Assembly: GCA_025677605.1 (NCBI GenBank) | Contig: GCA_025677605.1_4110.1 | Strand: one strand, 5' to 3' | Length of the DNA stretch: 64,000 bases | Source: a phage | In this document: positions 54,941 through 55,787 of the stretch, piece after piece | How the letters are laid out: every line of letters begins with the position of its first letter | Position numbering within the stretch: the first letter of the stretch is position 1 | Program-made: the position numbers and the translations under genes | The notes under the pieces: model-generated | Database searches by the model: none | Told to the model about the DNA's origin: nothing | The model's input: the letters and a program-made list of their open reading frames with translations, nothing else

Positions 54941-55123
54941 TTAGTACCTGTATATAAGTGTTAGTACATTGTACAAGTTATAGATATCATCTTCATTTAT
55001 TGCAGATTCTGTTTGATATCGGTAGAATATAGTTTGGCTTTTATCTTTGAAATCTACAGGTTTTTGGGGAATAAGTTTTTGGAGATCTATTGTAAGTTTA
55101 CTTACGTAGTATTCTTTATACAT
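54941..55123 (-). CDS. YKEFY-family small protein
   Basis: start moved to MYKEYYVSKL (ATG 55121-55123). Confidence 0.5.
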   Translation of the reverse strand: MYKEYYVSKLTIDLQKLIPQKPVDFKDKSQTIFYRYQTESAINEDDIYNLYNVLTLIYRY

Positions 55124-55787
55124 AGTTTGTAATATAAGTAATGAGGTGATGAATTTTCTTATCAGTACTGATAAGTTCCTGTACATGTTTTGTTAGTTTG
55201 TACGCGTTTTTGTACAGTACAGGATTATCGATTACAGTACTGTACATGAATAGATCTTCTTCCTGTAGTTCTTTGTGTTCTAGTTCTTTGAGGAATTCTA
55301 CAATTGATTTAGTTTCTTCTGTACGTTGCTGTTGGAAGAAATGCATGTTATCGTGTATTTCTTCTGAACCCATACTGTATATGCCACCCATTTGGAATTG
55401 TGCTGTATTGACATCGTGGGAGGTGTTACAATTCCCGAAGAAGTATGTATTCCCGAAGTATAGCATTAAAGTGCACGGGGTATTATCCAACTGCATATGG
55501 ATGATGAAGGATGCGTTCTTTAGTACCTTCATGCTCGTATTAGTACTCAATACTTTTAAATCAGTATTATAGATATTCATATAATGAACAGCTATATTAT
55601 TTTTCTTCATGTACAATTCAAGGTTCTTTGATACGTTAACTCCATTTGTACTGGTTTTTTTACTTTTCTTTAGGTTCTTTAGTACATTAGGGTGATAAGT
55701 ATATGCATTAGTGGTAGATTCAGCCTGGATTGATTGCAGGTACTTGAAGTGCTGTAGGTATCGTTTACTTTGTGGATTGAGTTTCAT
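55116..55787 (-). CDS. hypothetical protein with FQ-like motif inside YKEFY array
   Basis: 223 aa; EEDLFMYSTVID resembles FQ-family motif; RBS aaggag. Confidence 0.55.
   Translation of the reverse strand: MKLNPQSKRYLQHFKYLQSIQAESTTNAYTYHPNVLKNLKKSKKTSTNGVNVSKNLELYMKKNNIAVHYMNIYNTDLKVLSTNTSMKVLKNASFIIHMQLDNTPCTLMLYFGNTYFFGNCNTSHDVNTAQFQMGGIYSMGSEEIHDNMHFFQQQRTEETKSIVEFLKELEHKELQEEDLFMYSTVIDNPVLYKNAYKLTKHVQELISTDKKIHHLITYITNYV

What the first reader, a model, noticed from the sequence alone, without database searches (positions are those of the whole stretch)
55116..55787. Hybrid gene: FQ-like motif inside the YKEFY array
This 223-aa protein has EEDLFMYSTVIDNPVLY, closely resembling the FQ-family core, but lies within the YKEFY array. 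That suggests the FQ module can be recombined into other contexts.
Basis: inference. Interest (0 to 1): 0.35.

Follow-up and report, generated by a model that had tools for sequence, protein, structure and literature searches.

The report
Divergent FQ-family gene among mini-genes
A conserved 223-residue gene of a 121Q-like jumbo coliphage carries, at its C-terminal end, a slightly altered copy of the "FQ" module that is shared by more than 40 tandem paralogues elsewhere in the genome. It is an old resident of this locus and not a recent hybrid, so the finding is correct but fairly ordinary.

Summary
The window comes from an Asteriusvirus, a 121Q/PBECO4-like jumbo coliphage; its closest relative is phage A4.

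**Observation: confirmed.**
- The ORF at 55116..55787(-) is a real gene. It has an AAGGAG ribosome-binding site and an overlapping stop/start with the next gene. dN/dS is 0.32-0.42.
- Single-copy orthologues exist in 36 phage records (121Q gp256, phAPEC6 gp544c, phrog_29152).
- It holds EEDLFMYSTVIDNPVLY at residues 176-192.
- Nine small YKEFY-type ORFs lie upstream of it and seven downstream.

**The motif is homologous, not chance.**
- A matrix built from 40 FQ motifs scores it 23.9 bits. The next best non-family ORF scores 6.3 bits, and 0 of 20,000 shuffles reach its score.
- Profile-profile comparison with FQ paralogues gives E 1.7e-6 over 47 columns. Shuffled controls reach at most 24.2, against 45.0 for the real comparison.
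- Distant full-length homologues of the gene all carry canonical F-Q.
- FQ-array HMMs built without this gene hit those homologues at E about 1e-7.

**"Hybrid / recombined" reading: not supported.**
- No part of the protein matches the YKEFY family.
- In relatives (EJP2 and metagenomic contigs), 1-3 q-like genes sit at the same position, next to the RCC1-like genes, with no YKEFY genes present. The mini-gene array therefore most likely grew around an ancestral FQ-subfamily gene.
- Only about 50 C-terminal residues are detectably shared with the FQ array.

**Function: unknown.**
- The phAPEC6 orthologue gp544c is not listed in that phage's virion proteome.
- The FQ fold models confidently (pLDDT 90) and has no PDB match.

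The parts
55116..55787 (-). The gene in question ('q'): 223 aa, orthologue of 121Q gp256 / phAPEC6 gp544c, phrog_29152
   Evidence: ORF. phrog_29152 E 3.2e-135 over 1-223. 36 single-copy orthologues. dN/dS 0.32-0.42.
55794..55799 (-). Ribosome-binding site AAGGAG, 6 nt upstream of the ATG at 55787-55785
   Evidence: Read directly from the sequence.
55128..55274 (-). FQ module of q (residues 172-220): acidic helix start, F-M (ancestrally F-Q), S-T-V-I-D-N-P turn, and the C-terminal amphipathic helix
   Evidence: hhalign of q orthologues against 10 short FQ paralogues: probability 89.9%, E 1.7e-6, 47 columns; 300 column shuffles reach at most 24.2 against 45.0. Enriched q-subfamily profile: E 8.8e-8.
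55212..55262 (-).
   Evidence: PSSM 23.9 bits; 0 of 20,000 shuffles reach it. Near-invariant in the 22-member orthologue alignment. Q instead of M in JNE01, P0047, P0050-P0052 and EJP02_511.
55275..55787 (-). N-terminal about 170 residues specific to the q subfamily: MKLxxxxK(H/R)Y..FKYL helix, K-rich linker, strand region with the (I/T)PC motif
   Evidence: Conserved in distant homologues over the full length. No detectable similarity to the N-terminal parts of the FQ array. The AF2 model is of low confidence, pLDDT 45.7.
55816..57607 (-). Nine upstream small ORFs (59-75 aa) of the YKEFY/LEYY mini-gene family
   Evidence: ORFs. Family alignment and HMM. 61 members found in four phages.
53777..55123 (-). 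Seven downstream small ORFs of the same family. The first one's ATG (55123-55121) overlaps q's stop codon.
   Evidence: The same 8-nt overlap is annotated in 121Q genes 256/257.
57633..57661 (-). Sigma-70-like promoter (TTGACA, 17 nt, TACTAT) heading the leftward gene string that contains q. The palindrome TCAGTACTGA sits in its spacer.
   Evidence: Consensus scan and sequence. This is a prediction only.
35..26946 (-). Main tandem array of FQ paralogues (at least 40 genes of 100-215 aa, interrupted by a few other genes), the family whose module q shares
   Evidence: ORFs. jackhmmer, 35 hits. 40 aligned FQ motifs. AF2 model of member 17195..17650: pLDDT 90.2.

Best explanation
**What it is.** The ORF is a genuine, conserved phage gene. 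Its last 50 or so residues are a slightly degenerate copy (Q changed to M) of the 'FQ module' that defines the large tandem paralogue family at 35-26,946.

The module has four elements:
- a helix-starting acidic box ([ST]-[EP]-E-E);
- an aromatic residue followed by F-Q;
- an S-[TL]-[VI]-x-[DN] turn;
- an amphipathic C-terminal helix.

**Where it comes from.** The gene is not a hybrid with the YKEFY mini-genes. It is the single-copy representative, in 121Q-like phages, of a separate and older FQ subfamily (phrog_29152).
- In relatives, that subfamily sits alone or as 2-3 tandem copies at this position.
- The position is the first gene or genes of the leftward, sigma-70-type-promoter-driven gene string that diverges from the RCC1-like virion genes.
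- The YKEFY mini-genes expanded around it later, in the 121Q clade.

**Function (inferred, not shown).** It is a non-virion protein, probably expressed early and directed at the host (take-over or counter-defence).
- The invariant FQ module would act as the structural clasp that packs the C-terminal helices onto an alpha/beta body.
- The rapidly diverging N-terminal body would carry target specificity.
- q would be the slowly evolving member of an otherwise hypervariable family.
For: **Gene reality:**

**Motif not chance:**

**Homology of the module:**
- hhalign E 3.7e-5 against 32 long paralogues.
- hhalign E 1.7e-6 against short paralogues, with shuffle and reversal controls.
- hhalign E 8.8e-8 and 2.1e-7 with the enriched q-subfamily profile.
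- FQ HMMs that contain no q sequence hit q orthologues at 1.6e-7 (JNE01) and 8e-5 (121Q). They hit no other ORF outside the arrays.
- The same models hit the distant q-like proteins at 2.2e-7 to 2.6e-4.

**Ancestral F-Q:** JNE01, P0047, P0050, P0051, P0052 and EJP02_511 all have F-Q.

**Ancestral position and later arrival of the YKEFY genes:**
- Identical position in 121Q, JNE01, UE-S1 and phAPEC6.
- In EJP2, L005 and L008 the q-like genes come first. An ORF-poor stretch follows, then the orthologue of window 50880..51242. In L005 and EJP2 the RCC1-like genes directly adjoin the q-like genes.
- In L006 three tandem q-like genes adjoin an RCC1-like gene.
- None of these loci has a YKEFY-family hit.

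**Non-virion:** phAPEC6 gp544c, and every gene between gp347 and gp549, is absent from the 62-protein virion proteome (PMC7247149).

**Promoter:**

**Evolutionary rate:** q is 66-97% identical among phages in which an FQ-array gene is only about 35% identical.

**Module as a helix plus long helix:** AF2 model of an array member, pLDDT 90.2, helix 105-111 on EEYYFQQ followed by helix 117-131. The low-confidence q model shows the same order of elements.
Against: - Similarity is confined to 18-47 columns. The N-terminal 168 residues show nothing against the long subfamily. Against the short subfamily there is only a marginal hint: 11.6 against a shuffle maximum of 11.0.
- The q structure model is too poor (pLDDT 45.7) to test for a common fold. 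Its best BFVD match is weak (E 0.027, TM about 0.4).
- The invariant Q is replaced in this clade.
- No expression, interaction or phenotype data exist. Early timing rests on one consensus promoter match, and the host-directed role rests on analogy with accessory gene arrays of other large phages.
Confidence: 0.72

Rival explanations
1. Ancient domain shuffling. The FQ module, about 50 residues long, is a transferable cassette that was fused to an unrelated N-terminal domain to create the q subfamily. On this reading q is related to the FQ array only through that cassette.
For: - Detectable similarity is limited to 18-47 C-terminal columns.
- The N-terminal 168 residues give no signal against the long FQ N-terminal parts: 7.8 against shuffles of 7.5 +/- 1.2.
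- Within the array itself, several members match the family model only over the module, HMM positions about 85-145.
Against: - N-terminal halves inside the undisputed tandem array are just as unrecognisable to each other (mean identity 14%). Loss of signal is therefore expected from divergence alone.
- The order of secondary-structure elements is the same in the q model and the FQ model: N-terminal helix, 6-7 strands, short helix, FQ helix, long helix.
- There is a marginal N-terminal hint against the short subfamily.
- The best BFVD hit of the q model spans 206 columns of a 199-aa protein. That protein's accession falls in the same UniProt series as several FQ-fold hits. This is weak evidence.
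Confidence: 0.2
2. Recent hybrid. A recombination event inside the YKEFY array joined YKEFY-type sequence to an FQ-gene 3' end.
For: - The gene sits between two blocks of YKEFY-type ORFs.
- The neighbouring small ORF 55816..55995 has DRFMYDTF, resembling DLFMYSTV (q-HMM 7.4 bits, E 0.11).
Against: - No YKEFY-family signal exists anywhere in q: -3 bits, and hhalign E 0.09-0.33 for the full length, the N-terminal part, the C-terminal part and a 'mini-q' construct.
- The gene is conserved over its full length, single-copy and syntenic in 36 records.
- Full-length homologues exist where there is no YKEFY array.
- dN/dS of 0.32-0.42 over a dS up to 1.66 shows long-standing constraint.
Confidence: 0.03
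3. The FQ motif is a short functional signal and not a fold element. It would be a docking or processing site read by one common partner, such as a protease or a host factor. Under this reading it could have been acquired convergently by q.
For: - F and Q are invariant, and E(-3) and S(+2) nearly invariant, in an otherwise hypervariable family.
- From memory, not tested: the string E-x-x-[YL]-F-Q resembles the sites of TEV and 3C proteases.
Against: - The similarity extends beyond the motif into the following helix, 35-47 aligned columns.
- The motif is modelled with high confidence as a structured helix packed in the domain, pLDDT 95-97.
- The residue after Q is variable and S sits at +2, unlike the recalled protease sites.
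- The 121Q clade tolerates Q to M while keeping the rest.
Confidence: 0.08
4. Chance resemblance in an AT-rich, low-complexity proteome.
For: The first seed-based HMM gave only E 2 for the whole protein.
Against: - PSSM 23.9 bits against 6.3 for the next ORF; 0 of 20,000 shuffles reach it.
- hhalign score 45.0 against a shuffle mean of 12.2, sd 2.1, maximum 24.2; the reversed control scores 14.3.
- Canonical FQ is present in all distant homologues.
Confidence: 0.01

Closest known systems
Tandem 'FQ' paralogue family of Asteriusvirus: PHROGs 13866, 9317, 12674, 28549, 15629, 33987, 34600 and others, all 'unknown function'. It may be the '>30 very similar genes' array of 121Q mentioned by Hua et al. 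2017 (PMC5646251), which the paper does not identify.
   Same: - Same C-terminal module: acidic helix start, F-Q/M, S-T-[VI]-x-[DN], following helix.
- The module sits at the same distance (about 43 residues) from the C-terminus.
- Same strand and same long leftward gene string.
- The phAPEC6 orthologue gp544c is absent from the virion proteome, as are all phAPEC6 genes between gp347 and gp549, a range that includes the FQ member gp442c.
- No Pfam or PDB relatives.
   Different: - It lies about 28 kb from the array.
- It is slightly longer (223 aa against 100-215).
- Its N-terminal 170 residues are not detectably related.
- It evolves much more slowly: 66-97% identity against about 35% between the same phages.
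- It is single-copy.
- Q is replaced by M in the 121Q clade.
phrog_29152 / 121Q gp256 (AIT14146) / phAPEC6 gp544c (QDF14167) / phage A4 A4_254
   Same: Full-length orthologues: phrog E 3.2e-135, 83-97% identity. This is the family the gene belongs to.
   Different: Nothing of substance differs. All entries are annotated 'hypothetical protein'. In what I searched (Pfam, PHROGs, record annotations, a few full-text queries) nothing links this family to the FQ array.
q-like FQ genes of divergent relatives: EJP2 EJP02_511, and metagenomic P0050, P0051 and P0052 with their tandem neighbours
   Same: - Full-length homology: HMMER E 8e-7 to 6e-5 against 1.84 billion proteins; tblastn 24-29% identity over about 90%.
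- Same N-terminal MKLxxLQKHY helix, same IPC strand, same module.
- Same position next to the RCC1-like genes.
   Different: - They keep the canonical F-Q.
- They occur as 1-3 tandem copies.
- They have no YKEFY mini-genes around them.
YKEFY/LEYY mini-gene family (phrog_11711 and relatives), the array that surrounds q
   Same: Same strand and operon, tight packing, overlapping stop/start with q.
   Different: About 60 aa against 223 aa. No significant sequence or profile similarity to q or to the FQ family.

Membership tests
FQ paralogue superfamily (Asteriusvirus tandem array) | Core motif [ST]-[EP]-E-E-x-[YFL]-F-Q-x-S-[TL]-[VI]-x-[DN], about 40-45 residues before the C-terminus | tested here: met
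   Residues 174-188 read QEEDLFMYSTVIDN, with F180 43 residues from the end. PSSM 23.9 bits, against 24.9-28 for the weakest array members. One departure: Q is M here. Orthologues and homologues outside the 121Q clade have Q.
FQ paralogue superfamily (Asteriusvirus tandem array) | Significant match to a family profile built without the candidate | tested here: met
   - hhalign E 1.7e-6 (47 columns), 8.8e-8 and 2.1e-7, with shuffle controls.
- The q-free HMM hits orthologues at 1.6e-7 to 3e-4 and distant q-like proteins at 2.2e-7.
FQ paralogue superfamily (Asteriusvirus tandem array) | Homology over the whole protein, including the N-terminal helix and beta sheet | tested here: inconclusive
   - No signal against the long subfamily: 7.8 against shuffles of 7.5 +/- 1.2.
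- Marginal signal against the short subfamily: 11.6 against a shuffle maximum of 11.0.
- Array members themselves often match only over the module.
FQ paralogue superfamily (Asteriusvirus tandem array) | Shared three-dimensional fold | tested here: inconclusive
   - FQ member model: pLDDT 90.2.
- q model: pLDDT only 45.7.
- The order of secondary-structure elements is the same in both.
- Best BFVD hit of the q model: E 0.027, TM 0.39-0.42.
FQ paralogue superfamily (Asteriusvirus tandem array) | Location inside the tandem FQ array | tested here: not met
   q lies at 55.1-55.8 kb and the array ends at 26.9 kb. In relatives, q-like genes form their own small tandem sets of 2-3.
YKEFY/LEYY mini-gene family | About 60-aa protein with an N-terminal [YH]-K-E-[FY]-Y / L-E-Y-Y and a C-terminal L-x-L-I-[YF]-R-Y type helix, matching the family HMM | tested here: not met
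   q is 223 aa. The HMM of 16 window members scores -3.0 bits. The 61-member profile against q orthologues gives E 0.23. Against q-family segments it gives E 0.09-0.33.
phrog_29152 (121Q gp256-like proteins) | Full-length match to the family profile | tested here: met
   E 3.2e-135, residues 1-223 on profile positions 1-223.
Any Pfam family or solved structure | Match above threshold | tested here: not met
   - Pfam: nothing above cut-off.
- PDB sequence profiles for q and for the FQ family: 0 hits at E <= 1.
- Foldseek of the confident FQ model against the PDB: best E 2.0.

The most novel reading that the evidence does not exclude
The FQ module is an autonomous cassette of about 50 residues: a common docking, assembly or signalling element read by one partner. 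It has been grafted onto unrelated N-terminal bodies. Asteriusvirus would then carry a modular family of more than 45 diversified effectors built on a fold with no solved relative. q would be the slowly evolving founder at the head of the early operon, and the easiest handle for finding the shared partner.
Probability: 0.15. Interest if true: 0.5.

Novelty: new member of a known kind. Interest (0 to 1): 0.22.

Why it matters
- It links an orphan but conserved jumbo-phage gene family (phrog_29152) to the largest paralogue expansion of these genomes.
- It shows that the defining F-Q pair can be lost while the rest of the module is kept.
- It orders the history of the locus: the FQ-type gene came first and the mini-gene array second.
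- q evolves slowly and is single-copy. That makes it a more tractable entry point than the redundant array for asking what the FQ fold does. The fold models confidently and has no PDB match.
- Beyond that, the finding is a routine case of a divergent paralogue in an uncharacterised accessory region.

Tried and rejected
1. **Window-only, seed-based FQ HMM against q.** E 2 for the whole sequence, and the motif domain scored 6.5 bits. This model was too narrow. Several true array members score only 7-12 bits with it.
2. **q as an enlarged YKEFY gene, or YKEFY genes as internally deleted q genes.** N- and C-terminal strings look alike by eye (MKLTNLQKHY against MKITNIHQYY...HHLITYI against ...VLKLISI). 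The HMM and hhalign tests were all negative. They covered the full length, the N-terminal 45 residues, the C-terminal 60 residues and a 'mini-q' construct against a 61-member profile.
3. **A common origin of the three arrays (FQ, LGTNYQ, YKEFY).** hhalign E 0.2-0.5.
4. **Structure route for q.** AF2 on 22 orthologues gave pLDDT 45.7. The alignment is too shallow, and sequences from fetched loci were not accepted. The Foldseek hits of that model are not interpretable, apart from a weak top hit.
5. **Known function through Pfam, PHROGs, PDB sequence or PDB fold.** Nothing found.
6. **Location in a terminal repeat** (T5-like pre-early genes; UE-S1 is reported to have 8.3-kb terminal repeats). In the UE-S1 record the gene lies at 115 kb of 358 kb, so it is not terminal.
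7. **Palindrome TCAGTACTGA as a general promoter element for this operon.** Only 7 of 106 site orientations have flanking -35 and -10 matches.
8. **Resemblance of E-x-x-[YL]-F-Q to TEV/3C protease sites.** Recalled from memory and not testable here. The spacing of the following S and the structured-helix model argue against it.
9. **Literature.** No paper in the library describes these families. The only mentions are of tandem duplication in 121Q and phAPEC6.

Full report
**Source and setting.**
- Megablast of 53.5-58.0 kb finds only jumbo coliphages and Salmonella phages of the genus Asteriusvirus. These include 121Q, PBECO4 and phAPEC6. The best match is Escherichia phage A4, 97.1% identical over 79% of the query.
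- Almost everything from 35 to 57,607 is coded on the minus strand, as tightly packed small genes.
- From 57,674 onward, the plus strand carries RCC1-like genes.
- A sigma-70-like promoter match (TTGACA, 17 nt, TACTAT) at 57,661-57,633(-) sits between the two blocks. It is followed by AAGGAG and the first small ORF.
- The minus-strand string contains three paralogue families:
  - at least 40 'FQ' genes of 100-215 aa at 35-26,946;
  - about 24 'LGTNYQ' genes of about 70 aa at 26,371-31,315;
  - 16 'YKEFY/LEYY' mini-genes of 59-75 aa at 53,777-57,607.

**The observation.**
- The ORF 55116..55787(-) encodes 223 aa, and residues 176-192 read EEDLFMYSTVIDNPVLY.
- AAGGAG lies 6 nt before the ATG. 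The stop codon overlaps the ATG of the next mini-gene (ATGTATAA).
- The protein matches phrog_29152 end to end, E 3.2e-135.
- tblastn finds one copy in each of 36 phage records.
- The big protein collection holds 22 clusters at 65-97% identity.
- dN/dS against 121Q, phAPEC6, UE-S1 and JNE01 is 0.32-0.42.
- Nine mini-genes lie upstream and seven downstream. The same layout is annotated in 121Q (gene 256), JNE01, UE-S1 and phAPEC6 (gp544c).

**Is the motif more than chance?**
- A 22-column matrix from 40 window FQ motifs scores the protein 23.9 bits. The weakest true array members score 24.9-28, the best other ORF scores 6.3, and none of 20,000 shuffles reaches it.
- The first HMM I built, by jackhmmer from one long member, gave only 6.5 bits for the motif region. 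The same model also gives only 7-12 bits to several genes that sit inside the array. The region common to all members is just HMM positions about 85-145.
- Profile-profile comparison is clearer:
  - q orthologues against 32 long paralogues: E 3.7e-5 over 22 columns;
  - q orthologues against the 10 short paralogues: probability 89.9%, E 1.7e-6, score 45.0 over 47 columns (q residues 172-220);
  - 300 column-shuffled controls: mean 12.2, sd 2.1, maximum 24.2; the reversed alignment scores 14.3.
- HMMs iterated on the FQ arrays of the window and of 121Q, with all q orthologues withheld, gave the following:
  - JNE01 orthologue: E 1.6e-7 to 3e-4;
  - 121Q orthologue: 8e-5 to 0.04;
  - window protein: 0.03-0.3 (domain 12-14 bits, conditional E 3.6e-5);
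  - no other ORF outside the arrays was pulled in.

**Decisive comparative evidence.**
- The divergent orthologue in phage JNE01 (40% identical) reads EDEMFQWSTIIKDP, which is the canonical F-Q.
- A HMMER search of 1.84 billion representatives with the q profile found four more distant full-length homologues, and all carry F-Q:
  - P0047: YSEDEMFQWST;
  - P0050: YSEEEMFQLSL;
  - P0051: LTDEKIFQYST;
  - P0052: REEEAFQISTVIDNPNLY.
- Their neighbours are further q-like genes with EEILFQLEL, EEELFQLDL, EAELFQYTI and EEELFQIST.
- EJP2 gene EJP02_511 reads YTEEEIFQQSL.
- The q-free FQ-array HMM hits these proteins at 2.2e-7 to 2.6e-4.
- With them added to the q profile, hhalign gives E 8.8e-8 (35 columns) against the short paralogues and 2.1e-7 against a 76-member array profile.
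- So the q family is an FQ subfamily, and M181 is a derived substitution of the 121Q clade.

**Is it a hybrid?**
- I looked for YKEFY-derived sequence in q in several ways, and all were negative:
  - an HMM of the 16 window mini-genes: -3 bits;
  - hhalign with 16 members: E 0.11; with 61 members: E 0.23;
  - separate tests of the N-terminal 45 residues, the C-terminal 60 residues and an internally deleted 'mini-q': E 0.09-0.33.
- Synteny argues the other way:
  - In EJP2 the order is RCC1-like genes, then divergently one q-like gene, then an ORF-poor stretch, then the orthologue of window gene 50880..51242.
  - In contig L005 there are four RCC1-like genes, then three tandem q-like genes, then the same downstream genes. 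L008 is similar. In L006, three q-like genes abut an RCC1-like gene.
  - None of these loci has any ORF matching the mini-gene HMM at E <= 0.01.
- The simplest history is that an FQ-subfamily gene was already at the head of this gene string, and that the mini-genes multiplied on both sides of it in the 121Q/JNE01 lineage.
- The 'recombined into the YKEFY array' reading is therefore not supported.
- What remains open is whether q shares only the module with the array (ancient shuffling) or is a whole-length paralogue whose N-terminal part has diverged beyond recognition:
  - The N-terminal 168 residues give no signal against the long subfamily, and only a marginal one against the short subfamily.
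  - N-terminal halves within the array are equally unrecognisable to each other.
  - The order of predicted secondary-structure elements is the same in both models.

**What the module looks like.**
- AlphaFold2 on a 36-sequence alignment of a long member (17195..17650) gave pLDDT 90.2 and pTM 0.86.
- The model has an N-terminal helix, seven short strands and a short helix. A helix follows on E105-Q111 (EEYYFQQ), then a long helix 117-131, a strand and a final helix.
- The family pattern [ST]-[EP]-E-E before the aromatic-F-Q fits a helix N-cap with acidic first-turn residues. This is my reading of the alignment and the model, not a measured property.
- Foldseek finds no PDB relative (best E 2.0).
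- In BFVD it finds only uncharacterised proteins of Rak2-like jumbo phages: 121Q at 3.5e-14, RaK2, GAP32, Serratia phage BF and Yersinia phage fHe-Yen9-04.
- PDB sequence profiles also find nothing.

**Function.**
- Nothing is known, and I could test nothing directly.
- Shown:
  - The phAPEC6 orthologue gp544c, and every gene between gp347 and gp549, is missing from the 62-protein virion proteome. That range includes the FQ member gp442c. The neighbouring RCC1-like gp549 and gp551 are present (PMC7247149).
  - The gene string starts with a host-type promoter match.
  - An FQ-array gene is 99% identical in phage A4 but only about 35% identical in other Asteriusvirus genomes, whereas q is 66-97% identical across them.
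- Inferred: these are non-structural, probably early, host-directed accessory proteins under diversifying pressure. In them the FQ module is the constant structural clasp and the N-terminal body the variable surface, with q as the conserved member.
- For the related phage CBB, a comparable promoter-marked region has been suggested to be the early, host-take-over region (PMC5259590).

**Verdict.**
- The gene is a divergent, conserved FQ-subfamily member (phrog_29152). The mini-gene array came later.
- Novelty is limited to connecting two uncharacterised families and ordering the history of the locus. Interest is low to moderate.

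Noticed in passing
window 52,150-53,750: An ORF-poor stretch of about 1.5 kb lies between a NUMOD4 (homing-endonuclease-like) gene and the mini-gene array. 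It holds a tandem array of the 8-bp unit ATCTAGCC (about 18 units, 52,584-52,743). It also holds at least 9 copies of the palindrome TCAGTACTGA (1 mismatch allowed). There are no tRNA genes. An ORF-poor stretch occupies the same relative position in EJP2. It could be an origin or a regulatory region.
   Followed up: partly
whole window, e.g. 57,641-57,650; 55,162-55,171; 53,543-53,552: The palindrome TCAGTACTGA (1 mismatch allowed) occurs 53 times against 2.7 +/- 1.6 expected. One copy fills the spacer of the sigma-70-like promoter at the head of the leftward operon. Only 7 of 106 site orientations have promoter-like flanks, so it is not a general promoter element.
   Followed up: partly
window 6092..7504 (-): A 470-aa protein sits in the middle of the FQ paralogue array. 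It has several N-terminal hydrophobic segments, read by eye, and a methyl-accepting chemotaxis signalling domain (PF00015, E 6.3e-37).
   Followed up: no
window 26,371..31,315 (-), plus strays at 15,716-16,140 and 24,973-25,433: A second tandem family: about 24 genes of roughly 70 aa with the motif L-G-T-N-Y-Q-E (phrog_4148). No profile similarity to the FQ or YKEFY families.
   Followed up: partly
window 20,567..21,103 (-): This FQ-array gene is 99.4% identical in phage A4 but only 33-37% identical in 32 other Asteriusvirus records. This shows how fast the array evolves. In the A4 record the matching gene is annotated 'DNA ligase', which looks like a mis-annotation.
   Followed up: no
window 17,195..17,650 (-) and paralogues: The FQ fold models with high confidence (pLDDT 90.2, pTM 0.86) yet has no Foldseek match in the PDB (best E 2.0). 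Its only structural relatives are uncharacterised proteins of Rak2-like jumbo phages. It is a candidate new fold.
   Followed up: partly
window 57,674..60,943 (+) and beyond: Tandem RCC1-like (WD40_RLD) paralogues share the N-terminus MLPFVRM(L/F)(E/K)YGN. Two RCC1-like proteins of phAPEC6, gp549 and gp551 ('DNA condensation protein'), are virion-associated.
   Followed up: no
window 55,816..55,995 (-): The mini-gene immediately upstream of q contains DRFMYDTF, which resembles q's DLFMYSTV. The q HMM aligns its residues 6-54 to q's module at 7.4 bits, E 0.11. The orthologous mini-genes of 121Q, UE-S1 and JNE01 also appear among the weak hits. Family-level tests are negative.
   Followed up: yes
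L006 819-3010 (metagenomic contig, EJP2-like phage): Upstream of the three q-like genes lies a tandem array of seven proteins of 100-125 aa that are very hydrophobic and look like multi-pass membrane proteins. This is a different paralogue family occupying the flank that the mini-genes occupy in 121Q-like phages.
   Followed up: no
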